IMG/VR virus record: IMGVR_UViG_2740892427_000001 | DNA length: 64,000 nt | Direction: 5' to 3' (one strand) | From: a virus | Taxonomy: Duplodnaviria > Heunggongvirae > Uroviricota > Caudoviricetes | In this document: in pieces, positions 1 to 63,699 of the stretch | Position numbering within the stretch: position 1 is the first letter of the stretch | Layout of the letters: every line of letters begins with the position of its first letter | Made by a program: the position numbers and the translations under genes | Notes under the pieces: model-generated | Databases searched by the model: none | What the model saw: the letters and a program-made list of their open reading frames with translations, nothing else | What the model was told of the DNA's origin: nothing

Positions 1-236
1 TGACTCATTTCGCCAATCATCTGCTCCGGTGTGATACCAAGTTGCTGTGCTTTCAGCATGATCGGCGTACCGTGGGCATCGTCGGCACAGATGAAATTAA
101 CCTCGTGGCCGCGCATTCGCTGGTAACGAACCCAGACATCAGCCTGGATGTGCTCCAGCATATGGCCGAGGTGGATTGAGCCGTTAGCGTACGGCAGCGC
201 GCACGTCACCAGAATTTTCTTCGCGACTTGGGTCAT
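1..236 (-). CDS. metG: methionyl-tRNA synthetase, N-terminal part (gene continues beyond window start)
   Basis: Minus-strand ATG at 236..234; translation reads [60 protein letters not shown], the HIGH-motif N-terminus of MetG; divergent from mrp as in enterobacterial chromosomes. Confidence 0.85.
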
Positions 237-393
237 AGTAGGCATTACTTCTTTGTAGTGAAAAGGGGCTTGATAGTAACAAAATGGCCTTATGTCTGCC
301 ATGTGATAACAGCATTTCTCATAAATGATTAAATGTCGCAGCTGGAGTACACTACAAGGCGACAATTGCGCAAATTAAAATAAAGGAGACGGG

Positions 394-1494
394 ATGAGCG
401 AGTCCAAATCGCCGGATGCCCTGAGAGCAATGGTAGCCGGTACGCTGGCTAATTTTCAGCACCCAACCCTGAAACACAACCTGACTACGCTTAAAGCGTT
501 ACACCATGTTGCGTTGATGGATGACACACTGCATGTCGAACTAATCATGCCTTTCGTGTGGAATAAGCCTTTTGAAGACCTGAAAGAGCAATGTAGTGGT
601 GATCTGCTCCGTATCACTGGCGCAAAGGCTATTGACTGGAAGCTGTCGTACAACATTGCCACGCTTAAGCGCGTCAAAAACCAACCAGGCATTAATGGTG
701 TTAAGAATATTATCGCCGTAAGCTCAGGCAAGGGCGGTGTAGGCAAATCGTCCACAGCAGTAAACTTGGCACTGGCTTTGGCTGCTGAAGGTGCGAAAGT
801 TGGTATTTTGGATGCCGATATCTATGGTCCATCAATTCCAACCATGCTGGGCGCGGAAAACCAACGTCCAACCTCACCGGACGGTACTCACATGGCACCT
901 ATCATGTCTCATGGCCTGGCAACCAACTCTATTGGTTATCTGGTCACCGACGACAATGCAATGGTGTGGCGTGGACCGATGGCCAGCAAGGCGCTGATGC
1001 AGATGTTGCAGGAAACACTGTGGCCTGATCTGGACTATCTCGTTCTCGATATGCCGCCGGGCACTGGTGATATTCAATTGACGCTGGCGCAGAACATTCC
1101 TGTAACTGGTGCGGTTGTGGTAACTACGCCGCAAGACATCGCGCTGATCGATGCGAAGAAAGGCATTGTGATGTTCGAAAAAGTCGAAGTGCCGGTACTA
1201 GGTATCGTCGAAAACATGAGTGTGCATATTTGCAGTAACTGCGGTCATCACGAGCCAATTTTTGGCACCGGTGGCGCACAGAAACTGGCCGAGAAATACA
1301 ACACGCAGTTGTTAGGCCAAATGCCACTTCATATCTCTCTTCGTGAAGATCTGGATAACGGAACACCAACCGTTATTAGTCGTCCAGATAGCGAATTTAC
1401 GGCTATTTATCGTGACCTCGCAGATCGCGTTGCTGCCCAAATGTATTGGCAAGGTGAAGTAATACCTGGCGAAATCGCATTCCGCGCAGTGTGA
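394..1494 (+). CDS. apbC: Fe-S cluster carrier P-loop ATPase Mrp/ApbC
   Basis: 366 aa ORF; deviant Walker A SGKGGVGKS; CxxC near C-terminus; N-terminus close to E. coli Mrp. Confidence 0.9.
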   Translation: MSESKSPDALRAMVAGTLANFQHPTLKHNLTTLKALHHVALMDDTLHVELIMPFVWNKPFEDLKEQCSGDLLRITGAKAIDWKLSYNIATLKRVKNQPGINGVKNIIAVSSGKGGVGKSSTAVNLALALAAEGAKVGILDADIYGPSIPTMLGAENQRPTSPDGTHMAPIMSHGLATNSIGYLVTDDNAMVWRGPMASKALMQMLQETLWPDLDYLVLDMPPGTGDIQLTLAQNIPVTGAVVVTTPQDIALIDAKKGIVMFEKVEVPVLGIVENMSVHICSNCGHHEPIFGTGGAQKLAEKYNTQLLGQMPLHISLREDLDNGTPTVISRPDSEFTAIYRDLADRVAAQMYWQGEVIPGEIAFRAV

Positions 1495-1498
1495 TAAA

Positions 1499-1525
1499 AA
1501 GGTGGTGCAATGCACCACCTAAACA
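1499..1525 (-). terminator. hairpin ggtggtgcaatgcaccacc followed by T-run on the minus strand; terminator for the UmuD'-like gene
   Basis: Perfect 9-bp inverted repeat at 1501..1519; minus strand reads hairpin then TTTTTATC. Confidence 0.45.
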
Positions 1526-1531
1526 GTTCTC

Positions 1532-1921
1532 CTACATCACAGGACAATCATCAAACTCGCCACTTCTTGCGTCGTTGATAATGTGAGTGATCACACCAAA
1601 CACGGCATTGCTGCCCGTGCATCCATCATCATCCTTTGGCAATGCTTCCTTCTTACCAGTTCTTAAATCCTCCAGATGCTGACGTGGATACTTCCGGTAT
1701 CTTTTTACGCGATATTCCCCATCCAGAGCACATACAAGAAGAGATCCATCAACAGGAGTCAGTGAGGAATCGACCACCAGCAATGCACCCTGCAATATTC
1801 CCTCACGATGATGACTATCAGCCGCCCTCATGAAGTAGGTCGCTGAAGGATGTCTAATTATCTGCTGATCAAGAGAAATACGGCTCTCAGCATAATCCGC
1901 CGCAGGAGAAGGGAAGCCCAT
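1532..1921 (-). CDS. UmuD'/HumD-like SOS mutagenesis protein (S24 peptidase fold), naturally lacking the UmuD N-terminal arm
   Basis: MGFPSPAADY...SATYF..DS..VKR closely parallels UmuD/MucA from the RecA-mediated cleavage site onward; in-frame stop two codons upstream of the ATG, so no longer N-terminus is possible. Confidence 0.75.
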   Translation of the reverse strand: MGFPSPAADYAESRISLDQQIIRHPSATYFMRAADSHHREGILQGALLVVDSSLTPVDGSLLVCALDGEYRVKRYRKYPRQHLEDLRTGKKEALPKDDDGCTGSNAVFGVITHIINDARSGEFDDCPVM

Positions 1922-1937
1922 AATACTCGCCTCTTAA

Positions 1938-1957
1938 TGCTGTATATGCATACAGTA
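1938..1957. promoter_or_regulatory. LexA (SOS) box tgCTGTatatgcatACAGta upstream of the UmuD'-like gene
   Basis: CTGT-N8-ACAG consensus, 17 bp upstream of the start codon at 1921. Confidence 0.65.
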
Positions 1958-2258
1958 TATGTTGAAGCTATATATTTTTGAACTCTATCTCTTAAAAAAG
2001 ATGTTAATAAGATGCTAACTATTGAAAGGCATAAATATATACAATTCCAACAAACGTTATTTTTAACAAATTTTTACTTCCCATTGACTTTCCCAGACTC
2101 CTTGTCTGAACTAATGTCCGCGGAAACCACTTTTTCCTTTACGAGTTATCCACAAAGTTATGCACTTGCACATAGTCTCTATAAATCCTATCTTAATTCG
2201 CAAGACACTGATGTTGCGGTATTGTGGGTACATTTGGTTAAAAACGGACATTAAAAAA

Positions 2259-2284
2259 GCCCAGTTGACTAGGCTGGGCTTTTT
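2259..2284. terminator. bidirectional intrinsic terminator (gcccagttgactaggctgggc flanked by A-run and T-run)
   Basis: 7-bp stem, A6 upstream, T4 downstream. Confidence 0.5.
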
Positions 2285-2321
2285 AAAAGGAAACAGAGTT
2301 TGCGCCTCTGTTCCTGAGCCA

Positions 2322-2604
2322 TAAGTATCTGGCGACTGAGCTAAGATTAACCGAATGTACTGGATTCATCAAGAAACGTTGAGCCGTCATGCTAGGTAAT
2401 AATGACCATTTACCAAACATCGTTGTTCTCAAAGAAGATTTAAGTCCAGGTTTTTGGTGACTCTAAAACCTTACCTTAACTCGAAATCGTGCCGTAAGTA
2501 TCTGGCGACTACAGATATTGCAACTGCAAAGGCAAGCTCAAAGGTATTTGCAGCTAGGTGCGATAAAACTAAGTGAGGCCTATAGTGCTTAACTTACTTT
2601 TCAA
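2322..2604. repeat. direct repeats in the noncoding junction between chromosome and element: TAAGTATCTGGCGACT (2322..2337 and 2495..2510) and AAATCGTGCCG (2484..2494 and 2594..2604)
   Basis: Exact 16-bp and 11-bp direct repeats in a ~430-bp region with no ORF; ends with hairpin ggccccatccaaatggggcc at ~2683..2702. Confidence 0.45.
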
Positions 2605-2717
2605 AATCGTGCCGCCTATGTTCGCAATCATCGAAGCGATCATTGAGTACGTCAACCAGCGCCCATAATGCTAGTTGTTACCGGCCCCATCCAAATGGGG
2701 CCATTTTATTGTATTGA

Positions 2718-3350
2718 CTACATACTTTCTGATCTAATTGAGTTGTTCACTGCTCTGGCAATTTTCTCCCGCAATTGCTGCGTTCCGTGGTACTGAACCG
2801 CAATATCCCGCAACTCATTCACCAGTTCTCTAATCTGGTGATCTTTAAGCTCATTATTTGGGTGATGGGCAACAACTCTGGTTAATTCACCCTTGTCTTT
2901 TGCTCTTACGTATGCAGCTCTTGTGCATTCGACCCATGTATTACCGCCTACATTAACTTCGTAGATTAGGCTGGACTTATCTGTCAATTCGGAACAAATA
3001 CGGGCCGTGGTCTGGCAACTAGAGCATTCGCAGTTATCGCGGAAACCGTGATCTACCGGTCGAGAAAGAGGTTTAACTTTTTCATCCAACTTCATCACAG
3101 CATCGTGATAAGCGTTCCAGCCGTCATCTTTACCAAGTTGATAAATCTCTGAAGGCTCCATGTAGTCTATATCGCAACCTTCTTCATCTGATCTATCTGG
3201 TCGTTTCCCTGGTAATCGTTCATAAAAACGATTTCTGTCTCGACGTTCGGCTCTCAGTGCTAACGCAAGAAGTTGCTCAAGCGAGGTATTTGCACCAGCA
3301 ATAATTTCATTGAGAATATCTTCTGTGAGATCTTTCGCTACCGTGCTCAT
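2718..3350 (-). CDS. hypothetical protein with Cys cluster (CECSSC)
   Basis: 210 aa ORF, start overlaps upstream gene stop (operon); no confident family assignment. Confidence 0.5.
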   Translation of the reverse strand: MSTVAKDLTEDILNEIIAGANTSLEQLLALALRAERRDRNRFYERLPGKRPDRSDEEGCDIDYMEPSEIYQLGKDDGWNAYHDAVMKLDEKVKPLSRPVDHGFRDNCECSSCQTTARICSELTDKSSLIYEVNVGGNTWVECTRAAYVRAKDKGELTRVVAHHPNNELKDHQIRELVNELRDIAVQYHGTQQLREKIARAVNNSIRSESM

Positions 3351-3730
3351 TTATCTCTCTCAGTATGTTGCGATGGCGTAAATTTGACGACATCAAATAT
3401 TTTGGATGGCATCAACTTTATCCGCGAGCTTAGTTCGGCTCTTCTCTGTAATGCGGTTAATAATGTTTTCGTTCTGACGCCTTCGTGTATCCTCATCCCT
3501 GGCACAAGGACTACATCGCAGGGGAGATGCTCAGGTGACAAATCATTTTGGGCATCACCAATAAGTTGTGTAATCTCTCTTTCAAGCCGACCGCCTAACT
3601 CCGTTTTAGTGCAATGTTCTGACCAATCGCCAGCCTCAAGCAGCGCGAGAATGCTTAAAATATCGTCCAATAGATCAGTGGTATTATCGACTTCCTTCTG
3701 AAACTCACCGGCTACTGATTTATGCATCAT
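3347..3730 (-). CDS. hypothetical protein (possibly MazG-like pyrophosphohydrolase fold)
   Basis: 127 aa ORF, overlapping stop/start with neighbours; weak EAGDW..E motif resemblance only. Confidence 0.45.
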   Translation of the reverse strand: MMHKSVAGEFQKEVDNTTDLLDDILSILALLEAGDWSEHCTKTELGGRLEREITQLIGDAQNDLSPEHLPCDVVLVPGMRIHEGVRTKTLLTALQRRAELSSRIKLMPSKIFDVVKFTPSQHTERDK

Positions 3731-4380
3731 TCGTCATCCTCATCCGAGTCATCCTCATCACAGGATGAGAGTAGTGGGTTAGTCATTCGCCCTACTTGAG
3801 TGGCGTAGCCACGCCGACAGAGATTGCGCAGCACACTGTATATTTCGAACATCTCGGTTCGTTCATCGCCAACATCAAGCTCAGATGCTATAGCGTGGCA
3901 TTCAGTCGCGAGAGCCGATATTTTCTGAAATAACTCTGCATTATTCACTGTTCGACTCCTGCGGCGTTCTGGTAGTGGCATCCAGTGTGTGACATTGCTA
4001 ATCAGACCATATTCATTAGTTTGAGGATGGTTGCCGTTATCGTCTCCGTATTTAAGACTCTCCATAAAGCCATAATGCCTATCACCATTAACGCTCACAA
4101 AGCCGTAATAAGCAGGTATAACGCCGATCTCACACGTAACCAGTAAAGGAAAACTAGTTCTCCAATTTAGCTCGCCAATTACAGGCATTCGCTCACTACA
4201 GCTTATCCAACCATCCTTAGATGCGGCTGTATTGGCATAGGCCTTACGGTGCTTCTGTAGCTCTGCTGCAATCGCTCTCACGACTTCAACTGGTGCCCTT
4301 GCAGCAAACTCAATGTTGGTGATCAGCTCATTAAGATATTTCTCGCTTGGGTAGCATTTCTTATTGGTAAAGGTTGTCAT
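3727..4380 (-). CDS. hypothetical phage protein (DUF551-like), acidic C-terminal tail
   Basis: 217 aa ORF; W..C.ERMP and WMPLPE motifs reminiscent of DUF551; ends in DEDDSDEDDE. Confidence 0.5.
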   Translation of the reverse strand: MTTFTNKKCYPSEKYLNELITNIEFAARAPVEVVRAIAAELQKHRKAYANTAASKDGWISCSERMPVIGELNWRTSFPLLVTCEIGVIPAYYGFVSVNGDRHYGFMESLKYGDDNGNHPQTNEYGLISNVTHWMPLPERRRSRTVNNAELFQKISALATECHAIASELDVGDERTEMFEIYSVLRNLCRRGYATQVGRMTNPLLSSCDEDDSDEDDE

Positions 4381-4568
4381 TAGGCAGCTCTCTCAACAAC
4401 AAGCAATTCGTCGTAGTCATAATCAGTTTCGGAACCATCCGTACCGAACAGAGTCACTTTGTCACCGTCCATCCAGAAAGATTTAACCGCACATTGTTGA
4501 CCTTTAGATGTTATGACCACATCACCAGGTATTACGTCCTCAGCGCGAACTTCTATAGTTCTCATCAT
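4380..4568 (-). CDS. small hypothetical protein (~62 aa)
   Basis: ATGATG start overlapping the stop of the upstream gene (ATGA); the longer ORF in the track (to 4697) runs antisense-frame through the upstream gene. Confidence 0.4.
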
Positions 4569-4888
4569 GCTGATCCCTCTTTCTCTCCCCGGATAATTCT
4601 GTTGCACACATCCACGCACTCGTCGCAGATGAAAACGGCGTCCCCAGCAATTAACTTTTTGACGGCGTGCTGGGATTTGTTGCAGAAGCTGCAACAAAGT
4701 GTTCGCCTGACTGATAAGGATGGAGCGCCAGATGTCAGCCGCTCCATATCGTTCTTGCGACGCAATATCACACGGCTGAACTCAACCAGTTTCTCCGGGG
4801 ATATATCCTCCTCCGTAGCGAGCGTCTCTAGTCGTTCGAGTATGTTGAAGGCTTTTTCTTGGGTAATAGCAGAGTGCGATGTGGTCAT
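4565..4888 (-). CDS. small protein with C-terminal ClpX-type zinc-binding (ZB) domain
   Basis: C-terminus [38 protein letters not shown] parallels the ClpX N-terminal C4 zinc-binding domain (CSFCGKSQ..ICDECV..CN.II). Confidence 0.55.
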
Positions 4889-5286
4889 TTTCTTTCACCT
4901 TCAATGTTCGTGGCGCTGGCAAGATTGTCCTTGCGAAGAAGAGCGGCTATGCGCTTACTTCCATCCGAGATAACGCCCTCGTAATACTCACGCTGCTCGT
5001 TGAGTTTTGATTTTGCCAACTCCAGTTGTTTTGTTAGTTCCGCAATACGGCAAACATCGTTGATACGCGTTTCCTCTAATGCGTTGATCTCATCCAGTAG
5101 TGCCAGCACGGTTTCTGGTCCGGCCAGAAATTTGAAGGCGTTGAGGGCATCAATATCAACACCGCTATCTTTAAGTTCCTGTTCGCTTATCAGATCATCA
5201 TCAACTGGCAACATTAACAGGCGTTCCATTGCCGGAATTGCACGCTCTGCCGCCTCACGCAGTGCCTGATAGTCAATCTTGCTCAC
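4885..5286 (-). CDS. Ead/Ea22-like coiled-coil protein
   Basis: [15 protein letters not shown]-terminus typical of lambdoid Ea22-like proteins (from memory). Confidence 0.5.
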
Positions 5287-5783
5287 TGGATGACTCCTTT
5301 ACGAAGCTGTTCAGCAATACTTACGCATATCTCTGCGCCTCTAATCAGCCCCGGAACGTTCTTGTTTGGCCCAACTTCACCATCAACAAAATCAATCATC
5401 GCGTTACGAGCCATATCCACGCCCTGCGCACGTACTTCAGCCAGAAAAGCATCGGTGGCTGGAGTCTCCGTTAATTCGCTAACCCAATTATCTCCGTGTT
5501 CCTCGGCACACATCGTATCGAATGCTCGCTCAGATTCTTTCAGGGCTGCATTCTCCGCCGCTAATGCGTCTCTTTGCGCCCGCAACTTCTCAATTTCGGC
5601 AGCCATGTAGTAACCAACCATAGCGAAGACGGCAAAAGAGTTGTCTGCCTCATCAGGCGACACTGAGGCCATTAGCAGGCCATCGTAAAAATCGTGACTC
5701 CCATTGGTGATCGCCACCGCATAGGAGTCGTGGTTCTCGCGCTTGTGAATGAGAACTACGGGATTTTCGATTTTGTTACTCAT
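5283..5783 (-). CDS. hypothetical protein
   Basis: 166 aa ORF with conserved GGAAAAACACATG-type start context. Confidence 0.5.
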   Translation of the reverse strand: MSNKIENPVVLIHKRENHDSYAVAITNGSHDFYDGLLMASVSPDEADNSFAVFAMVGYYMAAEIEKLRAQRDALAAENAALKESERAFDTMCAEEHGDNWVSELTETPATDAFLAEVRAQGVDMARNAMIDFVDGEVGPNKNVPGLIRGAEICVSIAEQLRKGVIQ

Positions 5784-5921
5784 GTGTTTTTCTCTTCTTT
5801 GCTGTTACATAAGCACTACCAAGTGCTGGTTTATTTTCACAAATAAGAAAAGGTAGAAAACAATTTATTTAAGGCCACAACTTATGGCCTTTATTTATTC
5901 ATGCCGAAGGATTTGTAGCGT

Positions 5922-6302
5922 CTAATTGCCGGATAAAATGGGGTGAGGTGCTTGCCAGTAGGCTCCACCGGTCCATGTGAACCCCATGCGAATAAGAGTG
6001 TTTATTGCGGCTTTGGTAGACTCCGATTCGACACTGGCTTTTCGAAACTCTTGAACCTCTTTCGCCAACTTGTATGTAATTGTGCAGGGGACGATTGCAG
6101 CCCAGCCTTTCTCATGACTGTTAATGACCATCTGGATGTGACCATCCAGAATAGGTTGATTAGGCATGTTATTGAAAATGTCTGCCTGTTTTTGAATGTG
6201 AAGAAAAAGCCTTGCCAGCTCCATTTGCTCACTACGAGACAAGGGATTATCAAGAGGGCTTTTTGCAAAAGCGGCTATACGCTGTGCGTCAATGCCAAAC
6301 AT
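5922..6302 (-). CDS. hypothetical protein
   Basis: 126 aa ORF, stop overlaps next start. Confidence 0.45.
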   Translation of the reverse strand: MFGIDAQRIAAFAKSPLDNPLSRSEQMELARLFLHIQKQADIFNNMPNQPILDGHIQMVINSHEKGWAAIVPCTITYKLAKEVQEFRKASVESESTKAAINTLIRMGFTWTGGAYWQAPHPILSGN

Positions 6303-7006
6303 CAGCGCACCTCACCATCTTTATGGCTGGAGTTAACTTCCGCCATTAAATGTCTGACGTAATCGACAAGAGAGCCACCTGGTGGAATCTGGCATTCCTC
6401 AACTAACTGGAAGTAGATATCCGCTGCATTACGTGTATTGCTACCCGCACATATTCTTTCTTCCCGAAGTGCATGAAGCTCGTTGATCAAACGGTCACAC
6501 TCTCCGTTACGCTGATCCACAACGGCCTCAAGCTCTGCGACGCGTTCACCTGGCGTCTTACCTTCTTTGCGTTGGATGGTAACGACGAAATCGCCAATTG
6601 CAGGGACGTTGTAATCCAGCTCAAGGTAGTTTTTGGCACCGCTGCGGACGAACTCACCCGCGAACATGGTGGCGAACATCGCAGAGGCCACTTCGTCGTT
6701 GAAAAGTGACTCCAGATCTAACGGAGTCCCGGCAGCAAGAGCCTCTTTTGCTGTATCCATTGCATCCATGAACCGATCAAACTCACTAGCGCGCTTTTCC
6801 AGGTCTTTCCATTGCTCGCTCCAACGTTTGGCAACGAAGTCTATGAATGTTTTCGCGGATTCATCAAAATCCCCCTCAAACTTAACGATGCCTTTATCAA
6901 TAATGATCTGGCCTACCGCATCCTCTGCATAACCTTTCAATGTAAACTTGAAAGGAAAATCAGAATGGCCTGTGACGTTAAAATGCTCTAACTGGAGGTT
7001 GTTCAT
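6302..7006 (-). CDS. hypothetical protein
   Basis: 234 aa ORF with conserved start context catgtgtttttc. Confidence 0.5.
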   Translation of the reverse strand: MNNLQLEHFNVTGHSDFPFKFTLKGYAEDAVGQIIIDKGIVKFEGDFDESAKTFIDFVAKRWSEQWKDLEKRASEFDRFMDAMDTAKEALAAGTPLDLESLFNDEVASAMFATMFAGEFVRSGAKNYLELDYNVPAIGDFVVTIQRKEGKTPGERVAELEAVVDQRNGECDRLINELHALREERICAGSNTRNAADIYFQLVEECQIPPGGSLVDYVRHLMAEVNSSHKDGEVR

Positions 7007-7067
7007 GTGTTTTTCTCTTATCGTTTAGTTATTACATTCTTACACAAATTAAGTAAGTATTTACCTA

Positions 7068-8753
7068 TCATTTAACGCGTTTGAAAACGTATACGCTGAC
7101 TGTGATCCCTGTGTCTTCAAACTCGTTGGTAAACGACTTCCCTCTGGCATAAACGTAATTATCCATCGTCATCCAGTCCAGTATTGGCGCAGTGCCCGGC
7201 AATACTGCTACAAGACGCCCGCCGACTTTCAGATGCCCCAGCGCAGCCAGCGTGTGCTCTCTATGACGACCAAGCGAGTACGGCGGGTTCATAACGATTT
7301 TGTCGAACTGATAACCTACGTTGTCCTCAGACCACTTTATGAAGTCGCAGCAAATCGTGTTCGTATACCCTTTTCCGCGCAGGATATCAGCGAAGAGAGG
7401 TGCGATTTCTATGCAGGTAACATCTTCCAGATCGGCGTTAATATAGGCCAGAAGATCCCCACGTCCGGCTTGAGGCTCCAACAACTTCTCACCAGGCTTC
7501 AATTCAGTGGCTCTGGCAACGTACTCAGCAATCAAGCGTGGGGTAGGGTAGAACTGGTGTGATTTTGTATCCGGTATTAAACCGGTAGCCACAATCGTAT
7601 TTAGCGTATGGCCGATCTCATACGGGAACTGCCAGTGCTTTTTCTCCTGCACGCCGCCAATGAAGCTCAGTGTGCGCTCAAGCTCTTCCACCTGCGACTT
7701 CTGGAGAGCTGAATCAGAGAAGTACCATACGCCTTTGTCTTTGCTAAATCGCCCGTCACGAAGCGCAGTGCGAACCGGCACGGAGATCGTCTTCTGGATT
7801 AACCCGAACTGCTTTGGTGCCCGTGTTTTTGGCGCAGTTCGGCATGGCGCGGGAATTGCAGCAGGCATACTGTAAGCCAGCACCTCATTCAACTTCCAGG
7901 CCACGTCAGGATGTATTTCAAAGTGAACGTTGCCGTTCTTGAACATCTTCACGCGCATCAGATTTCCATCGACGTTCATCCAGTCACCGGTCTGGCAGTC
8001 GTTTGCCCGATACGCAGCTGATAGCACCTCAGCAGTGCGGTTGATGGTAATAAATTCTTTGTGCGCGAAGAAATGAAGCAAGACACGCAGATCGTCGATA
8101 TAGTCCTCTTTGCGATAGTTCACACTAACGCTGTCCCGCCAGAAATCAGAAATGCAGTCAGCGATTATCAGACGTTCGCTGAAACCGTTTGTCTTATTTG
8201 TCTTGTGCGCAGGACTCAGCGCCTTAAACAAGCCATACACGCGCTCAGAGAGATATTTGTGCCTGTCATTCAGCAAATTAAGCATCGTGGGTATGACCGT
8301 TTCTGCTTTGAACTCCGGTACACCAACGAACTCTTTAACCTTCATCTGGTAGCCGGTTCTGTCAGTTTTGATGACTTCCTGTTTGCCCTCTATAAACTGC
8401 TCGCGCCACTCATCTCGACGGGAAGCTGGCATGATCAGCAAAACGTTAGTCATGTCCGTGACCTTCCTCCAGTACTCGGCCCAAATATTCTGTTTCACCC
8501 ATTCCAGATCGACTTTATCCAACCAACCTCGATTTAAACGCGAGCGATCTTCATCTGGTCGATGGTTTAGTCTCAGCAGGCGATTAATCATGTTGTGGCG
8601 TTCGTCGCCATAAACGAAGTCGTGTACCTGATACATGAAGGCGATCTCTTTCTCGCACTCGGCCACAATTTCGTGGATGACGTTCATTTCCTGCCGATAG
8701 TCGATAGCAGTGTTTGAGTTGGCATCGTCGATGATGGAAAGGGCTGTATTCAT
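7068..8753 (-). CDS. DNA N6-adenine methyltransferase fused to a large uncharacterized N-terminal domain
   Basis: C-terminal third carries FYPTP, EPQAGRGDL (AdoMet-binding) and NPPY motifs; N-terminal ~380 aa unassigned. Confidence 0.65.
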   Translation of the reverse strand: MNTALSIIDDANSNTAIDYRQEMNVIHEIVAECEKEIAFMYQVHDFVYGDERHNMINRLLRLNHRPDEDRSRLNRGWLDKVDLEWVKQNIWAEYWRKVTDMTNVLLIMPASRRDEWREQFIEGKQEVIKTDRTGYQMKVKEFVGVPEFKAETVIPTMLNLLNDRHKYLSERVYGLFKALSPAHKTNKTNGFSERLIIADCISDFWRDSVSVNYRKEDYIDDLRVLLHFFAHKEFITINRTAEVLSAAYRANDCQTGDWMNVDGNLMRVKMFKNGNVHFEIHPDVAWKLNEVLAYSMPAAIPAPCRTAPKTRAPKQFGLIQKTISVPVRTALRDGRFSKDKGVWYFSDSALQKSQVEELERTLSFIGGVQEKKHWQFPYEIGHTLNTIVATGLIPDTKSHQFYPTPRLIAEYVARATELKPGEKLLEPQAGRGDLLAYINADLEDVTCIEIAPLFADILRGKGYTNTICCDFIKWSEDNVGYQFDKIVMNPPYSLGRHREHTLAALGHLKVGGRLVAVLPGTAPILDWMTMDNYVYARGKSFTNEFEDTGITVSVYVFKRVK

Positions 8754-28349: not shown

Positions 28350-28575
28350 GTGTTTTTCCTTTGTGGTTATTTTGATACAGATATTAAGTGTGTTTGAGAG
28401 GCGAACAATCCAGATAACACGGCCATTAAGAATGTTCACAGACACATGATTATGGCAAATTCATAGGTAAGTGAATACCTATTTTTATGGACAGCAAAGA
28501 CTTCTAGATGTTACAAGCCACTCTATAATCGCAGTCACTTAATGATGACAACCAAACGAAAAAGGAGAACTGACG

Positions 28576-29079
28576 GTGAAACGCGTAATTATAGGGACGA
28601 TGGCCATTGCTCTGATCGGATGCGTACCAAAACCACCTCAAGATGAAAAGTCAGCTGGCGGGTACGTTGATATTTACTCCACTTCAAGCGTAGCAATTGC
28701 CCAAGACAGAGCCGACAAATTGTGTGGAAGCCATGCCTATTATGTCTCTAACGACAATGATTTAACCAAAGTCATGGGTAGATACGCGCCTTCATTCCCA
28801 AAAATCAGGTTCAACTGTGATCTTGAAATGGCCGCTTATCTGGGCAGCAAAGAGGCAAAGGAGATCAAAATGAAACGCATAGAGGAAGCCTACAAGGAGA
28901 TGTACAAGGCCCAATATGAGCTGAAAGAAGTGCGCCGTAAGAACGCTGATCCGAAGAAGCTGGAGTCTTACACAGAACGCGATCCGGACGGTACTATTCG
29001 CAGCTACAGCTTCTTGAATGGCAAGTCGTGCGAATCAATCGTGTACCCAGACGGCACGGGCAAAACGACTTGTGATTAA
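28576..29079 (+). CDS. lipoprotein (plus-strand cassette)
   Basis: Signal peptide with lipobox LIGC; own terminator downstream. Confidence 0.6.
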   Translation: MKRVIIGTMAIALIGCVPKPPQDEKSAGGYVDIYSTSSVAIAQDRADKLCGSHAYYVSNDNDLTKVMGRYAPSFPKIRFNCDLEMAAYLGSKEAKEIKMKRIEEAYKEMYKAQYELKEVRRKNADPKKLESYTERDPDGTIRSYSFLNGKSCESIVYPDGTGKTTCD

Positions 29080-29088
29080 TTCTTCAGG

Positions 29089-29115
29089 AGCACCTCGTAT
29101 GGGGTGCTTTTTATT
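29089..29115 (+). terminator. intrinsic terminator after lipoprotein gene
   Basis: agcacc/ggtgct stem followed by TTTTTATTTT. Confidence 0.55.
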
Positions 29116-29551
29116 TTGGGTCGCGAAACAGCATGTCGGCCATTTGCGAGGATTTGACGTAGCACTTTGCCATCATCGGCTGACTAGGGTTTGATGCGAT
29201 CATGTCGGACACCAGCATTGACCCATAGCCTTTTCCGCGAAGCTCTTTGACAATACTGACGGCACGGAGTTCAAGTCAAGGTGCGCCAGTCGGATCGAGT
29301 GCGGCACAGAACCAGATTAGTCCTACTTTTTGTCATCAGAACGATGCAGCAGGATGTAGATAAAATGCCCGGAGTATTGGCCCCGCTCGTTCGTCTTGAT
29401 TGCCAGTCTGGTCTGCTGCTCAAAGGTTTTACCCCCCCTTTGATGTGAGGATCTCTTCGTAGAAGTGACCTTTGCGTGCGCCGTCCTCGAACTCAGCCAT
29501 GATAAAAGGCATGTCTGTCACAGTTGCTGCCCTTGAATAAAATTCACTCAT
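29111..29551 (-). pseudogene. decayed GNAT acetyltransferase-like gene (frameshift at C7/G7 tract plus further disruptions)
   Basis: Minus-strand reading MSEFYSRAATVTDMPFIMAEFEDGARKGHFYEEILTSKGG stops at the G7 run (29432..29438); C-terminal fragment in another frame has LRGKGYGSML (GNAT motif A-like). Confidence 0.45.
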
Positions 29552-29626
29552 GTATTAATCCTAAAAGCCCTCAGTGTCTTTCTAATGCACCATATTTTAT
29601 GCCTCGGTTAAACCCTGAGATTACGT

Positions 29627-30271
29627 TTAAAACGTCTCAGTGGGCTTTTTACGCGCTGCGTTTATGCTTATGACGCCAGCTTTTGGACGTGGGTCAACAA
29701 GGTTAAGCTCTTCTTCACTGTGGTATTCGAGGTCGAACTCACGTTTTACATGTCTGATGTAGATTGCGGTGAGCAGGCTATCTTTGGTCAGGAAGTGTCC
29801 GTAGGATTTGCGGATCACTTCTTCTACCTTCTCGATTTTCTCACCACCCATACAGAGATGATTAAACCGGCTGTGTTTCCGCAACATTTCGTCTACTGGG
29901 CCTGAGTAAACCTTGTCTACTTTCCCAAAACGGATGATTTTCCCTGTGTCTGCGGATACAAGGCAAATCAGCTTGTCTGGTGATAAACGATCTTGCCACG
30001 TCACACCTGAACGGAGTGTGTTGAAGTAGGGTGCATCCAATCCGATGATCGGTTTACGAAATGCGAGCAATGGAACGTACCTGATGCAACTGTTTAAATG
30101 AAAATTCACACCAGCCTTATCAAGTTTAATTCTGGTTTCGTAGATCGGGCACTTCGCCGCTATACCGCAGATGTCACAAAGCAACTTCTGCTTATTCAGG
30201 TTGGAATTTGATTCGATAGTGTAGGAGCCGTCCTCAAGACGACGAACCCAGCGCGTGCGTTTTAGATCCAT
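29627..30271 (-). CDS. hypothetical protein adjacent to replication origin
   Basis: 214 aa ORF. Confidence 0.5.
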   Translation of the reverse strand: MDLKRTRWVRRLEDGSYTIESNSNLNKQKLLCDICGIAAKCPIYETRIKLDKAGVNFHLNSCIRYVPLLAFRKPIIGLDAPYFNTLRSGVTWQDRLSPDKLICLVSADTGKIIRFGKVDKVYSGPVDEMLRKHSRFNHLCMGGEKIEKVEEVIRKSYGHFLTKDSLLTAIYIRHVKREFDLEYHSEEELNLVDPRPKAGVISINAARKKPTETF

Positions 30272-61111: not shown

Positions 61112-61169
61112 GACCTGCTTCCGTATAAATAATAATAAGTAACTTAGTATTTATATACAGAAGCAGGTC
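61112..61169. terminator. second copy of the long conserved hairpin GACCTGCTTCCGTATA / TATACAGAAGCAGGTC
   Basis: 16-bp stems with AT-rich loop; paralog of hairpin at 13546..13604. Confidence 0.5.
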
Positions 61170-61367
61170 AAAAACCAACCCAACCTAGTTTTTAGTCTCA
61201 TGGTATGCAACCTTAAGATCTACTTCAAAACAGCTGCACGCCAGACGGTTGTAACATTGTTAAGTGTAACAAATTATTGTAGATTACTCAGGCACAGAAT
61301 AGCATCTACAACTTAAGAAACGTCCAGAAATAAACAATGTACCAATCACGTAGAAAGGGAATTAAGA

Positions 61368-62045
61368 ATGAAGGCGAATAAGTCAGCGGCACTTTTAGTT
61401 TTATTATTAGCCGGTTGCGCGCAACAAAGTAACCCACAACAAAATGCCACTGTAAAACCAATCCTAACCCAAGAAATATTGCCTTCCTCTAACGTAGAGT
61501 CAAAGGCGAAAATGGGTGACCTTGTCGTTTATAACACGTTTGTGTCCACGTTAAAAACCGACATGGTCACTCTTGGTAACGCTTCTGGTTCGATGTCTGA
61601 GATTAAAGCGGGCAACTACTGCCACGTTGGTGGTGGGGTCTACCGGAACTTTGAAGACTCAAAAGCTGTGGGCCTGAAGGCCATTACAGGGCAGGTAGTG
61701 AGCCACACTGATAACGTCAAGTATGACAAGGTCAAAAACACTATATCTCCTCCAAACACCACGACGTTCGACGCCTCCGAAATATCCATAAAATTCGCAC
61801 AAAATGTCCCCTGCCATGTAGAGAAAAAGATTGTTCAGTCTATTTCTTATAATGGTAAAAGCGGCGAAGAACTTAAATTTATTTATTCCGAAAGCTACCC
61901 ATATTTAGATGAAACTAAGACTGAGTTTTCAGTGCCTCTTTCCGATGCAAAAACCAAAGTCGAATATAAAAACCTGGCATTCAAGGTTATTGAAATGGAG
62001 GGTACTACAATCCGCTACTATGTATTACCATCTGGCAATAAATAA
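61368..62045 (+). CDS. lipoprotein (plus-strand cassette)
   Basis: Signal peptide with lipobox LAGC; convergent with flanking operons. Confidence 0.6.
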   Translation: MKANKSAALLVLLLAGCAQQSNPQQNATVKPILTQEILPSSNVESKAKMGDLVVYNTFVSTLKTDMVTLGNASGSMSEIKAGNYCHVGGGVYRNFEDSKAVGLKAITGQVVSHTDNVKYDKVKNTISPPNTTTFDASEISIKFAQNVPCHVEKKIVQSISYNGKSGEELKFIYSESYPYLDETKTEFSVPLSDAKTKVEYKNLAFKVIEMEGTTIRYYVLPSGNK

Positions 62046-62083
62046 ACTGCTTTAAAATATAGGCGCCATCTGGCGCCTTATTC

Positions 62084-62443
62084 TTAACTCTTCTTCATTA
62101 ACTCGCGTTTAATTTCATCGGTACGCATCGTGACATCGGCAGCTGTGATCGCCTCGTTAAGTTTCACGATATCCTCGATTTCCTGCGGTGATTTCTCTGC
62201 CAAATGGAAAATAGCAGCACGAATCACATCAGAGCGGGTGAACTTCTCGAAACGAGGGATGAACTTCATCATCTCCAGCAGTTCGAAGTATTCGTCTTCC
62301 AGTGACATTGTGCGGCTTTTAATTTTCTCTTTGCCACGAGTCGGGCGTCCCTGTGGTCTGACTGGTTGGCGCAAAGGAGTTGTGTTCTTAGCCGGTGCAT
62401 CAGGCTCTTTGCGCTTTGCTAGGTCACCCATTTTCATGGACAT
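62084..62443 (-). CDS. ParG/ParB-like centromere-binding partition protein
   Basis: 119 aa, basic disordered N-terminus, immediately downstream of parA. Confidence 0.4.
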   Translation of the reverse strand: MSMKMGDLAKRKEPDAPAKNTTPLRQPVRPQGRPTRGKEKIKSRTMSLEDEYFELLEMMKFIPRFEKFTRSDVIRAAIFHLAEKSPQEIEDIVKLNEAITAADVTMRTDEIKRELMKKS

Positions 62444-63111: not shown

Positions 63112-63429
63112 TGGAGAGTTCCCTTTGCGTATATAATTATCGTCTGAAACAACTTGTTTTCTTATATGTGATATAGCCTAAATGCCTACGGCTGCGGTGT
63201 AAAGGTTAAATGGTAGGTTGTGATTAACAATTGGCAATCATAGCTTGTATTTGTCTGTTGAAAAAAGTAACAATGACCTCTATATTACAAGTACGGTGAT
63301 ATGCCGTACACAATTTGATAATGCACACGTAATGGGCTATAGCCTTTTAAAGTAATTTTTGAGTCGAAAACTCAGTTTGAACAGAGGAGATTGATGGCCT
63401 TCCTACATCACGGCCATCAGGAGGAATAC

Positions 63430-63699
63430 ATGTCAGCACTAAAAAAGCAGCGCATCGATTTGAGATTAACCGATGACGATAAAAGCATCATCGAGGAAGC
63501 TGCCGCAATGTCTAACCAGAGCATTACTCAGTTTATGGTTAGCAGTGCATCTGAACGTGCCGTGAAAGTTATAGAGCAACACCGTAGACTAGTTCTGAAT
63601 GAAGAATCCTGGAATCTGGTTATGGACGCTATAAGCAATCCTCCGGCACCGAACGACAAGCTGAAACGAGCTGCTGATCGTCTGAAAAGCATGGAGTAG
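63430..63699 (+). CDS. TacA-like (DUF1778) antitoxin
   Basis: AGGAGG RBS 5 nt before ATG at 63430; ~89 aa; precedes GNAT toxin gene. Confidence 0.55.
   Translation: MSALKKQRIDLRLTDDDKSIIEEAAAMSNQSITQFMVSSASERAVKVIEQHRRLVLNEESWNLVMDAISNPPAPNDKLKRAADRLKSME

What the first reader, a model, noticed from the sequence alone, without database searches (positions are those of the whole stretch)
28576..29079. Two plus-strand lipoprotein cassettes embedded antisense to the main operons
The genes at 28576..29079 and 61368..62045 each encode a lipoprotein with a classical lipobox (LIGC, LAGC). Each has its own promoter region, and the first has its own terminator; both run against the prevailing transcription direction. 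Independently expressed envelope lipoproteins in phages are often superinfection-exclusion or receptor-masking factors.
Basis: partly seen in the sequence, partly recalled or inferred. Interest (0 to 1): 0.35.

Follow-up and report, generated by a model that had tools for sequence, protein, structure and literature searches.

The report
Two stand-alone lipoprotein cargo genes
Two real, selectively maintained outer-membrane lipoprotein genes sit as swappable single-gene cargo in an SSU5-like phage-plasmid; what they do is unknown, but the evidence argues against the classic trick of masking the phage's own receptor.

Summary
ORF1 (28576-29079, 167 aa, lipobox LIGC) and ORF2 (61368-62045, 225 aa, LAGC) are genuine genes on the minority strand of an SSU5-like phage-plasmid. 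Each has a ribosome-binding site and a stable terminator hairpin. The lipobox cysteine is invariant in both families, and dN/dS is 0.03-0.22.

Each gene lies in an insertion/deletion cassette (28389-29636 and 61174-62090) that close relatives lack or fill with other cargo. The two cassettes assort independently.

Both families are small, restricted to Enterobacterales, unnamed, and without sequence or fold relatives. Both move between mobile elements:
- ORF1 relatives sit in integrase-AlpA-primase islands and on an IncFII-replicon plasmid.
- ORF2 relatives sit in the P2 defence hotspot, on IncC plasmids, and as the only gene of a 2.69-kb ColE1 plasmid.

A promoter is only inferred. ORF1 has an invariant TATAAT; ORF2 has weak candidates.

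Llp/Cor-style masking of the element's own receptor is disfavoured. The genes are far from tail genes, three times larger than those factors, and carried by virion-less plasmids. Near-identical ORF1 alleles also pair with unrelated tail tips.

The most likely role is a stand-alone envelope protection factor, which remains untested. The finding is ordinary in kind, and these are new families.

The parts
28389..29636 (.). Cassette 1: the variable block between the SbcD-like gene and the ASCH-like gene. It holds ORF1 and a decayed GNAT gene.
   Evidence: Against phage Cyrano, homology breaks at window 28388/28389 and resumes at 29636/29637. These 1,248 bp replace 225 bp in Cyrano (annotation).
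28524..28529 (+). Candidate -10 hexamer (TATAAT) of the ORF1 promoter. Inferred, not shown.
   Evidence: It lies inside the block CACTCTATAATCGCAG, which is invariant in five copies including the 78% nt-identical Cronobacter copy. The best -35 match is only 2-3 of 6. The consensus scan did not report it.
28563..28567 (+). Ribosome-binding site (AGGAG) of ORF1, 8 nt before the GTG start.
   Evidence: Read directly from the sequence. Conserved in SSU5, SARA26 and ESBL242.
28576..29079 (+). ORF1: 167-aa lipoprotein precursor. Signal peptide and lipobox LIGC, with Cys16 at 28621-28623; Val at +2. The mature part of about 151 aa has four further conserved cysteines.
   Evidence: lipobox rule. C16, C50, C81 and C166 are invariant and C152 nearly so; dN/dS 0.03-0.18. 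AF2 mean pLDDT 81.7; phrog_18989, unknown function.
28729..28809 (+). Hypervariable patch of ORF1 (residues 52-78).
   Evidence: For window versus SARA26, non-synonymous divergence is 0.46 here against 0.02-0.05 in the flanking segments. The patch is also the least conserved stretch in the family alignment.
29086..29120 (+). Intrinsic terminator of ORF1: an 11-bp stem, a 4-nt loop and a T-run.
   Evidence: terminator scan.: -15.1 kcal/mol, z = -3.1.
29111..29551 (-). GNAT acetyltransferase pseudogene, an orthologue of SSU5_071, convergent with ORF1.
   Evidence: Relative to SSU5_071 it has two frameshifts, one in-frame stop and a C-terminal deletion. The gene is intact in SSU5 and SARA26 and absent in Cronobacter pH322_1.
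61112..61169 (.). Conserved long inverted repeat at the left edge of cargo slot 2. It belongs to the backbone, not the cassette.
   Evidence: present in Cyrano and SSU5, and homology ends at about 61173.: -24.4 kcal/mol, z = -8.0.
61174..62090 (.). Cassette 2: the variable block between the conserved 249-aa gene and the small gene upstream of parA. It holds ORF2 with its upstream region and hairpin.
   Evidence: Against Cyrano and SSU5, homology breaks at 61173 and resumes at 62091. The slot holds CYRAN_30 in Cyrano and a DUF2971 gene plus others in SSU5.
61257..61272 (.). Perfect palindrome TTGTTA-AGTG-TAACAA in the ORF2 upstream region, overlapping the weak -35/-10 candidates. A possible operator or promoter element (inferred).
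   Evidence: It lies in a stretch that differs at only one position, in the central spacer, between the window and the Citrobacter and Klebsiella grimontii copies, whose coding regions are 88-91% identical to the window. Promoter candidates score 8 of 12.
61368..62045 (+). ORF2: 225-aa lipoprotein precursor. Lipobox LAGC with Cys17; Ala at +2. It has a low-confidence tether of about 10 residues after Cys17, then an all-beta domain with two conserved cysteines.
   Evidence: G16, C17, C85 and C149 are invariant; dN/dS 0.07-0.22. AF2 mean pLDDT 77.2, all-beta; phrog_1353, unknown function.
62061..62078 (.). GC-rich hairpin between ORF2 and the convergent small gene. A shared, bidirectional terminator.
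   Evidence: z = -4.8 on the plus strand and -4.9 on the minus strand. The GGCGCC stems are conserved while the loop varies in the Citrobacter and Klebsiella copies.

Best explanation
Shown:
- Both genes are genuine single-gene accessory cassettes ('morons') in two variable cargo slots of an SSU5-like phage-plasmid.
- Each encodes a precursor with a canonical signal peptide and lipobox, and each is under purifying selection.
- Each belongs to a small, unnamed, Enterobacterales-only family.
- Both families are exchanged among phage-plasmids, prophages, satellite-like islands and plasmids.

Inferred from established lipoprotein biology (Lgt/LspA/Lnt processing and the Lol '+2 rule'):
- The proteins are exported, lipidated on the invariant cysteine and sorted to the outer membrane, because position +2 is Val or Ala and not Asp.
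- The conserved cysteine pairs form periplasmic disulfides.

Inferred mechanism:
- Each protein acts alone in the cell envelope and gives the carrier cell a benefit that does not depend on which mobile element carries it.
- The most likely benefit is protection against incoming phages or other agents that attack the envelope.
- This is generic envelope-level exclusion or defence, not masking of the element's own receptor.
- The hypervariable patch of ORF1 (residues 52-78) is the candidate contact surface.

My confidence is about 0.9 for the genetic and anatomical part and about 0.35 for the protective function.
For: Real genes:
- The lipobox cysteine is invariant and every motif variant remains a valid lipobox.
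- dN/dS is 0.03-0.18 for ORF1 and 0.07-0.22 for ORF2.
- ORF1 stays intact while the adjacent GNAT gene has decayed.

Cassettes:
- The boundaries are exact.
- The ORF1 locus occurs in four states: empty, lipoprotein alone, lipoprotein with GNAT, and lipoprotein with a decayed GNAT.
- Slot 2 carries different cargo in each relative.
- Cargo at the same slot in Cyrano (CYRAN_30) is transcribed in lysogeny (PMC9928086).

Patchy and independent distribution:
- ORF1 is in 106 PLSDB plasmids and in one phage, SSU5.
- ORF2 is in 13 SSU5-like plasmids.
- Among 5,426 complete E. coli genomes, cassette 1 is complete in 2 and cassette 2 is in 41, and no record has both.

Mobility between element types:
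- ORF1 relatives at about 60% identity are the only opposite-strand gene next to alpA in integrase-AlpA-primase islands, and also sit on an IncFII-replicon plasmid.
- ORF2 relatives sit between the gene A region and the portal gene in Fels-2, which is the P2 tin/old defence hotspot (PMC9519451).
- ORF2 relatives also sit on Edwardsiella IncC plasmids.
- An ORF2 relative is the only convincing gene of a circular 2.69-kb RNAI/ColE1 plasmid. This shows the protein needs no partner gene.

Precedent: one validated single-gene defence system from the E. coli pangenome is 'a lipoprotein' (PMC9519451).
Against: - There is no expression or phenotype data for either family. The one literature lead, HCM2.0069c, turned out not to be the orthologue.
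- The consensus scan found no sigma-70 promoter upstream of either gene.
- Upstream DNA is not carried along between different backbones.
- Neither protein matches any PADLOC defence model.
- The folds have no known neighbours, so the mechanism rests on context alone.
- A location in a defence hotspot is suggestive but not specific, because such slots also carry toxin-antitoxin and virulence cargo.
Confidence: 0.5

Rival explanations
1. This is the first reader's reading, an Llp/Cor-type self-exclusion factor. The lipoprotein binds and blocks the outer-membrane receptor that this phage-plasmid itself uses. That prevents superinfection by the same or related phages and stops progeny adsorbing to cell debris.
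For: - Both are probably outer-membrane lipoproteins of a temperate phage and are transcribed apart from the neighbouring operons.
- Disulfide-stabilised small lipoproteins are the known format of Llp and Cor (own knowledge).
- ORF1 has a hypervariable patch that could track a variable partner.
Against: - Known factors of this type are encoded at the receptor-binding-protein locus (PMC11990801). These two genes lie in the replication and partition half of the element.
- ORF1 alleles that are 97.6-98.8% identical occur with pHCM2-type tail-fibre tips and also with tips only about 34% identical over half the length. They likewise occur with J-like C-termini that are 99.6% identical and with ones alignable over only 60-70% of the query at 62-66% identity.
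- Both families are also carried by plasmids with no virion and by satellite-like islands.
- There is no sequence or fold similarity to any known protein.
- The mature proteins are 2-3 times larger than Llp or Cor (own knowledge).
Confidence: 0.12
2. Host-fitness or virulence conversion. In this reading the lipoproteins change host envelope properties, such as serum or complement resistance as with lambda Bor and plasmid TraT, or adhesion, or stress tolerance. They would not act against phages.
For: - The genes are carried by many element types in clinical Enterobacterales, including S. Typhi pHCM2-type plasmids.
- The function is stand-alone.
- Purifying selection acts on both genes.
- The C-terminus of ORF1 carries a 'DPDGxIxSYxF' motif that is shared with PKD/Ig adhesin repeats.
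Against: - There is no similarity to Bor, TraT or any Pfam or NCBIfam family.
- The PKD resemblance is one short motif, not a domain.
- The ORF2 homologue sits in a locus enriched specifically for anti-phage genes (PMC9519451).
Confidence: 0.2
3. Periplasmic immunity or inhibitor protein. In this reading the lipoprotein neutralises an envelope-targeting toxin or enzyme, such as a bacteriocin, a T6SS or contact-dependent effector, or lysozyme (as MliC/PliC-type lipoprotein inhibitors do).
For: - These are probably outer-membrane-anchored, disulfide-bonded periplasmic domains.
- An ORF2 relative is the sole cargo of a small ColE1-type plasmid, a backbone that classically carries bacteriocin-related genes (own knowledge).
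- ORF1 has a hypervariable patch of the kind seen in toxin-immunity arms races.
Against: - No toxin gene is adjacent in any context examined.
- There is no fold similarity to known inhibitor or immunity proteins in the PDB.
Confidence: 0.12
4. Lysis component. In this reading one or both genes encode an outer-membrane spanin subunit (Rz1-like).
For: ORF2 gives a weak hit to phrog_812, 'Rz-like spanin' (E = 0.03). The hit covers only residues 1-39, which is essentially the signal peptide, lipobox and tether.
Against: - No i-spanin, holin or endolysin gene is adjacent to either gene. The neighbours are SbcD/ASCH/RepA for ORF1 and helicase/ParA for ORF2.
- SSU5 already has its own assigned two-component spanin (PMC6139136).
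- Close relatives lack both genes yet produce virions, as shown for Cyrano (PMC9928086).
- Homologues sit on non-phage plasmids.
Confidence: 0.01

Closest known systems
T5 Llp and the Cor proteins of T1/phi80/N15/HK022 (receptor-blocking superinfection-exclusion lipoproteins)
   Same: They are phage-encoded outer-membrane lipoproteins with a lipobox and disulfide-forming cysteines. They are expressed apart from the structural operons and act in the envelope.
   Different: - No sequence or structural similarity was found.
- The mature ORF1 and ORF2 proteins are 2-3 times larger (own knowledge).
- The genes are not next to receptor-binding genes.
- ORF1 does not co-vary with tail tips.
- Both families also occur on virion-less plasmids.
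Classical phage morons (lambda bor and lom; P2 tin, old and fun): accessory genes inserted between conserved genes with their own transcription signals
   Same: - Presence or absence between otherwise collinear genomes, with sharp boundaries.
- Opposite orientation to the neighbours.
- A dedicated terminator.
- An ORF2 homologue lies in the P2 tin/old slot (PMC9519451).
   Different: - No promoter has been demonstrated.
- Expression in the carried state is unknown.
- Base composition is barely atypical: 47.2% and 41.9% GC against 46.0% for the window.
The single-gene 'lipoprotein' defence system reported in the E. coli pangenome selection (Vassallo et al. 2022, PMC9519451)
   Same: It is a stand-alone lipoprotein gene on a mobile element that confers phage defence, and it sets a precedent for this format.
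   Different: Neither ORF matched any model in PADLOC-DB v2.0.0, so no relationship to that system was found. I did not confirm that this system is represented there. That system did not block adsorption, whereas the mechanism here is unknown.
Plasmid surface- or entry-exclusion lipoproteins (TraT, TrbK)
   Same: They are small lipoproteins carried by plasmids that act at the envelope against incoming mobile DNA. ORF1 and ORF2 relatives do occur on plasmids with transfer genes.
   Different: The only hit is to TrbK, at E = 0.11 and confined to the signal peptide, and there is no TraT hit. In the Edwardsiella IncC plasmid the gene sits beside integrase and DUF2971 cargo, not within the transfer genes.

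Membership tests
Bacterial lipoproteins (Lgt/LspA/Lnt substrates; PROSITE PS51257 pattern) | A positively charged n-region, an uncharged hydrophobic h-region, a lipobox of the form [LVI][ASTVI][GAS]C, and the cysteine at position 15-35. | tested here: met
   ORF1 is MKRVIIGTMAIALIG-C16 and ORF2 is MKANKSAALLVLLLAG-C17. Both pass the rule, and none of 20 random windows gave a passing ORF of 150 aa or more.
Bacterial lipoproteins (Lgt/LspA/Lnt substrates; PROSITE PS51257 pattern) | The lipobox cysteine is conserved across homologues. | tested here: met
   C16 is invariant in 11 ORF1-family sequences and G16-C17 is invariant in 11 ORF2-family sequences. All motif variants are valid lipoboxes. Distant ORF1 relatives also carry a lipobox.
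Bacterial lipoproteins (Lgt/LspA/Lnt substrates; PROSITE PS51257 pattern) | Actual lipidation, LspA cleavage and outer-membrane localisation. | not testable with these tools
   This needs globomycin sensitivity, palmitate labelling and membrane fractionation. Outer-membrane sorting is inferred from the non-Asp residue at +2 (the Lol rule, established knowledge).
Llp/Cor-type receptor-blocking exclusion lipoproteins | Sequence or structural homology to Llp or Cor. | tested here: not met
   No Pfam, PHROG or NCBIfam family other than unknown-function PHROGs. No Foldseek hit at E <= 0.001 in the PDB for either protein, or in BFVD for ORF1. No match in PDB sequences.
Llp/Cor-type receptor-blocking exclusion lipoproteins | The gene is located at the receptor-binding-protein or tail-tip locus. 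| tested here: not met
   ORF1 lies between SbcD and ASCH/RepA. ORF2 lies between a helicase-adjacent gene and parA. The ten large genes scanned in the window are replication, metabolism and maintenance genes. In pHCM2 the nearest tail-fibre gene lies about 2.5 kb beyond parA. The locus rule comes from PMC11990801.
Llp/Cor-type receptor-blocking exclusion lipoproteins | Co-variation with the phage's receptor-binding specificity. | tested here: not met
   For ORF1, carriers with 97.6-98.8% identical ORF1 have tail-fibre tips that are either 100% or only about 34% identical to the pHCM2 type. Their J-like C-termini are either 99.6% identical or alignable over only 60-70% at 62-66%. This was not tested for ORF2. 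Caveat: which tail protein reads the terminal receptor is not known for this group.
Llp/Cor-type receptor-blocking exclusion lipoproteins | An exclusion phenotype through loss of adsorption or DNA entry. | not testable with these tools
   This requires efficiency-of-plating and adsorption assays.
Phage morons | Presence or absence between otherwise collinear related genomes. | tested here: met
   Cassette 1 is absent in Cyrano, CMS-2020a and PhiR41_1. Cassette 2 is replaced by other cargo in Cyrano, SSU5 and pHCM2.
Phage morons | An own terminator. | tested here: met
   For ORF2, the stem is conserved while the loop varies.
Phage morons | An own promoter, and expression from the repressed prophage. 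| tested here: inconclusive
   No consensus promoter was found. ORF1 has an invariant TATAAT upstream and ORF2 has weak candidates plus a conserved palindrome. There are no transcript data. Other cargo in the same slot is transcribed in lysogeny in Cyrano (PMC9928086).
Outer-membrane spanin subunits (Rz1-like) | The gene is embedded in or adjacent to an i-spanin gene within a lysis cassette. | tested here: not met
   The neighbours are not lysis genes. The phrog_812 hit (E = 0.03) covers only residues 1-39. SSU5 has a separate assigned spanin (PMC6139136).
Known anti-phage defence systems (PADLOC-DB v2.0.0) | A significant match to a defence-system protein model. | tested here: not met
   ORF2 has no hits. 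ORF1 has only chance-level hits at E = 0.0036 and 0.066 to unrelated helicase and Csx27 models.

The most novel reading that the evidence does not exclude
ORF1 and ORF2 would be founding members of two new families of stand-alone envelope lipoproteins that block phage infection, or another envelope attack, by a mechanism unrelated to Llp and Cor. They would be traded as single-gene modules among phage-plasmids, P2-like prophages, satellite-like islands, conjugative plasmids and tiny ColE1 plasmids. The hypervariable patch of ORF1 (residues 52-78) would be the arms-race interface.
Probability: 0.25. Interest if true: 0.55.

Novelty: new member of a known kind. Interest (0 to 1): 0.32.

Why it matters
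Phage-plasmids of the SSU5 group are common in clinical Enterobacterales, including S. Typhi pHCM2, and most of their cargo has no known function.

This work shows that two of their 'hypothetical' genes are conserved, partner-independent envelope lipoproteins that circulate among very different mobile elements. That singles them out as cheap, testable candidates for new envelope-level protection factors. Each needs only one gene, one plasmid and a phage or colicin panel.

The result also corrects the default assumption that any phage lipoprotein masks the phage's own receptor. In addition, it flags an annotation problem: NCBI's start-codon call for ORF1 in one record removes the signal peptide, so the protein is no longer recognisable as a lipoprotein.

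Tried and rejected
- **Family assignment.** Pfam, PHROGs, NCBIfam and PADLOC gave only unknown-function PHROGs and hits confined to the signal peptide.
- **Fold assignment.** The AF2 models were usable (pLDDT 81.7 and 77.2). Foldseek against the PDB for both proteins, and against BFVD for ORF1, gave nothing at E <= 0.001. Profile searches against PDB sequences gave nothing.
- **Profile search of 1.84 billion representatives for ORF1.** It returned only 30 hits. The hits to giant proteins were PKD/Ig adhesins that share just the short 'DPDGxIxSYxF' hairpin motif, so I rejected them as homology.
- **Portable promoter.** Upstream DNA is not conserved across different backbones for either gene. 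Only about 20 nt around the ribosome-binding site of ORF2 is conserved.
- **Expression evidence.** The LF82/Cyrano transcriptome is not informative, because none of my searches found either gene in Cyrano. HCM2.0069c, an immunogenic pHCM2 protein in typhoid carriers, looked promising. However, the orientation and gene order of pHCM2 show it is not the ORF1 orthologue.
- **GNAT as a functional partner of ORF1.** Rejected. GNAT is decayed here, absent in Cronobacter, and not adjacent in the other contexts.
- **Spanin reading.** Rejected on gene context.
Full report
**What the window is**

A megablast of 27500-30500 hits Salmonella phage SSU5 over the full length at 84% identity. It hits the E. 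coli phage-plasmids Cyrano, CMS-2020a and PhiR41_1 at 96-98%, but over only about 57% of the query. The ten large genes I scanned encode DNA polymerase, ribonucleotide reductase, ligase, methyltransferase, a recombinase-like protein, integrase, ParA and related functions. So this window is the replication, metabolism and maintenance half of an SSU5-like phage-plasmid, with no tail or lysis genes among them. Nearly all long, non-shadow ORFs are on the minus strand.

**The observation**

Both ORFs exist at the stated coordinates.
- ORF1 starts at GTG 28576, with AGGAG 8 nt upstream. A 78% nt-identical Cronobacter copy has ATG at the same position, which fixes the start.
- The N-termini MKRVIIGTMAIALIG-C and MKANKSAALLVLLLAG-C both satisfy a PROSITE PS51257-type rule. 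None of 20 randomised windows gave a passing ORF of 150 aa or more.
- ORF1 is followed by an 11-bp hairpin plus T-run, at -15.1 kcal/mol and z = -3.1.
Its stem is conserved while the loop varies in diverged copies.

The promoter claim is the weak point. The consensus scan finds no plus-strand sigma-70 site upstream of either gene.
- ORF1 has a perfect TATAAT (28524-28529) inside a 16-nt block that is invariant in five copies, but its -35 is poor.
- ORF2 has only 8-of-12 candidates, which overlap a conserved palindrome, TTGTTA-AGTG-TAACAA.

Independent transcription is therefore inferred from geometry.

**Are they real genes?**

Yes.
- In the ORF1 family the lipobox cysteine and three further cysteines are invariant, and a fifth cysteine is nearly so. 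In the ORF2 family G16-C17 and two further cysteines are invariant. Every lipobox variant is still valid.
- dN/dS is 0.03-0.18 for ORF1 and 0.07-0.22 for ORF2.
- The GNAT acetyltransferase gene convergent with ORF1 has decayed here, with two frameshifts, a stop and a deletion relative to SSU5_071. ORF1 is intact and 98% identical to SSU5_072.

**They are cassettes in variable slots**

Cassette 1:
- Against Cyrano, homology breaks at 28388/28389 and resumes at 29636/29637. These 1,248 bp replace 225 bp.
- The locus exists in four states: empty (Cyrano), lipoprotein alone (Cronobacter pH322_1), lipoprotein plus intact GNAT (SSU5, SARA26), and lipoprotein plus decayed GNAT (this window and ESBL242, which is 100% nt-identical in ORF1).

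Cassette 2:
- Window 61174-62090 replaces CYRAN_30 in Cyrano and a DUF2971 gene plus others in SSU5. pHCM2 has yet another arrangement.
- A conserved 58-bp inverted repeat (61112-61169, z = -8.0) marks the left edge of the slot.
- In Cyrano, the cargo of this slot is among the genes transcribed in lysogeny (PMC9928086).

**Distribution**

- ORF1 is in one phage of the collection, SSU5, and in 106 PLSDB plasmids. All 106 are non-mobilizable and most are 100-120 kb. They span Enterobacter, Salmonella (including pHCM2-sized S. Typhi plasmids), Citrobacter, Escherichia, Cronobacter, Klebsiella and Raoultella.
- ORF2 is in none of the SSU5-like phages in the collection and in 13 SSU5-like plasmids.
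- Among 5,426 complete E. coli genomes, cassette 1 is complete in 2 and cassette 2 is present in 41. All copies are on plasmids, and no record has both.

The two cassettes therefore assort independently, and none of the records returned by these searches carries both.

**Both families move between mobile-element types**

ORF1 relatives at about 60% identity are not in SSU5-like elements.
- They are the only opposite-strand gene, next to alpA, in islands of about 6-7 kb with the order integrase-AlpA-...-DUF4222-primase. These resemble phage satellites.
- Another relative lies on a plasmid with an IncFII replicon and TrbI/SLT transfer genes.

ORF2 relatives are found in three further settings.
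- In Fels-2 and other P2-like prophages (38% identity) they lie between the gene A/DinI region and the portal gene. That is the tin/old locus, which Vassallo et al. describe as a defence hotspot (PMC9519451).
- On Edwardsiella IncC plasmids (65%) they lie next to a DUF2971 gene.
- At 70% identity, one is the only convincing coding gene of a circular 2.69-kb plasmid with an RNAI/ColE1 replicon. The evidence is a 93-bp terminal overlap, permuted copies from independent samples, and an RNAI match of 84 bits.

The last case shows that the protein works without a partner gene and confers something selectable on its own.

**What the proteins look like**

- No curated family matches either protein. 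The PHROG matches are phrog_18989 and phrog_1353, both of unknown function.
- No PADLOC defence model matches.
- ORF1 (AF2 mean pLDDT 81.7) has a small alpha/beta N-domain, a long charged helix at residues 92-123 and a C-terminal beta-meander.
- ORF2 (mean pLDDT 77.2) has a low-confidence N-terminus (residues 1-27) followed by an all-beta domain.
- Neither has a structural neighbour in the PDB, and ORF1 has none in BFVD, at E <= 0.001. Neither has a sequence relative among solved structures.
- A profile search of 1.84 billion representatives returned only 30 hits for ORF1. These were small Enterobacteriaceae lipoproteins annotated 'hypothetical', plus giant PKD/Ig adhesins that share only the short 'DPDGxIxSYxF' motif.
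- Two distant relatives share only the N-terminal module.
- ORF1 has a hypervariable patch at residues 52-78. Non-synonymous divergence is 0.46 there against 0.02-0.05 in the flanking segments, for window versus SARA26.

**Mechanism**

From established lipoprotein biology, both precursors should be lipidated on the invariant cysteine, cleaved by LspA and sent to the outer membrane by Lol, since +2 is Val or Ala and not Asp. The conserved cysteine pairs fit periplasmic disulfides. These steps are inferred, not shown.

The functional inference rests on context. Stand-alone envelope proteins that are kept under selection and traded among phages, satellite-like islands and plasmids most plausibly protect the carrier cell at the envelope. 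The P2 hotspot location and the precedent of a validated single-gene 'lipoprotein' defence system (PMC9519451) point to phages as the target.

I put this at about 0.35. Conversion of host fitness or virulence (0.2) and immunity to an envelope toxin (0.12) remain live alternatives.

**Why not Llp/Cor-type self-receptor masking**

- Known factors of that type are encoded at the receptor-binding-protein locus (PMC11990801). These two genes are not.
- There is no homology to those factors.
- The mature proteins are 2-3 times larger (own knowledge).
- Both families also occur on plasmids that make no virion.

A direct comparative test also argues against it.
- Tail-fibre tip: the pHCM2-type tip occurs at 95% identity or more in only 34 plasmid records. 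ORF1 at 95% or more occurs in 86 records across seven genera.
- Named ORF1 carriers have tips only about 34% identical over half the length: CP074286.1, NZ_CP133340.1 and NZ_CP134668.1, with ORF1 at 97.6-98.2%.
- J-like tail protein: CP082664.1 is 99.6% identical in the C-terminus. NZ_CP136050.1 and NZ_CP047967.1 align over only 60-70% of the query at 62-66%. All three carry ORF1 at 98.2-98.8%.

Caveats: the protein that reads the terminal receptor is unknown for this phage group, and I did not run this test for ORF2.

**Verdict**

In kind they are ordinary moron-type accessory lipoproteins of a temperate element. They belong to two uncharacterised families with no known fold, an unusually broad range of carrier elements and, for ORF2, proven autonomy.

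Noticed in passing
window 29111-29551 (minus strand): The GNAT acetyltransferase gene convergent with ORF1 is a pseudogene here, with two frameshifts, an in-frame stop and a C-terminal deletion relative to SSU5_071. It is intact in SSU5 and SARA26 and absent in Cronobacter pH322_1.
   Followed up: yes
It is a 276-aa SPFH/Band-7 protein (Pfam E = 2.6e-30) with lipobox LTGC followed by Asp at +2, which predicts inner-membrane retention. It is on the majority strand and is conserved in pHCM2.
   Followed up: partly
window 61112-61169: A long, conserved inverted repeat (-24.4 kcal/mol, z = -8.0) lies exactly at the left boundary of cargo slot 2 and is also present in Cyrano and SSU5. It could be a terminator or insulator, or a recombination hotspot that explains cargo turnover.
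   Followed up: partly
L018 (about 70-8039); L019 (about 1973-8039); L020, L021: ORF1 relatives sit in integrase-AlpA-primase islands of about 6-7 kb that appear to be inserted inside a phage head module. On one side is a ClpP-protease fragment or S49 protease with portal and terminase; on the other is a full protease-capsid fusion or capsid E. This is either a capsid-forming satellite or a satellite integrated into a prophage head gene.
   Followed up: no
L013 (2,786 bp, 93-bp terminal overlap); L014, L015: A circular 2.69-kb ColE1/RNAI plasmid, seen in several independent assemblies, has a 221-aa ORF2-family lipoprotein as its only convincing protein-coding gene.
   Followed up: yes
L006 2525-3004 (NZ_KP792123.1, plasmid ESBL242): The RefSeq annotation starts the ORF1 orthologue at an internal ATG (Met9). 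This removes the n-region and half of the h-region, so the signal peptide and the lipoprotein nature are lost. The GTG/ATG start 24 nt upstream is supported by the ribosome-binding site and by the Cronobacter ATG.
   Followed up: yes
L010 3376-4167; L008 1894-2652; L025 33349-34104: A DUF2971 gene recurs with this system. It is adjacent to the ORF2 homologue on Edwardsiella IncC plasmids, and it occupies cargo slot 2 in SSU5 and pHCM2, which lack ORF2. This may indicate a shared ancestral cargo block.
   Followed up: no
window 63391-63699 (plus strand): A TacA-type antitoxin (Pfam TacA1, E = 8.6e-26) is another plus-strand accessory unit next to parA. In the near-identical plasmid NZ_CP117972.1 it is followed by a GNAT family N-acetyltransferase gene.
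   Followed up: no
window 28969-29073 (ORF1 residues about 132-166): The C-terminal beta-hairpins of ORF1 carry a 'DPDGxIxSYxF' motif. It scores against 5-11 repeats each in giant PKD/Ig-repeat adhesins. This is motif-level resemblance only, and its significance is unknown.
   Followed up: partly
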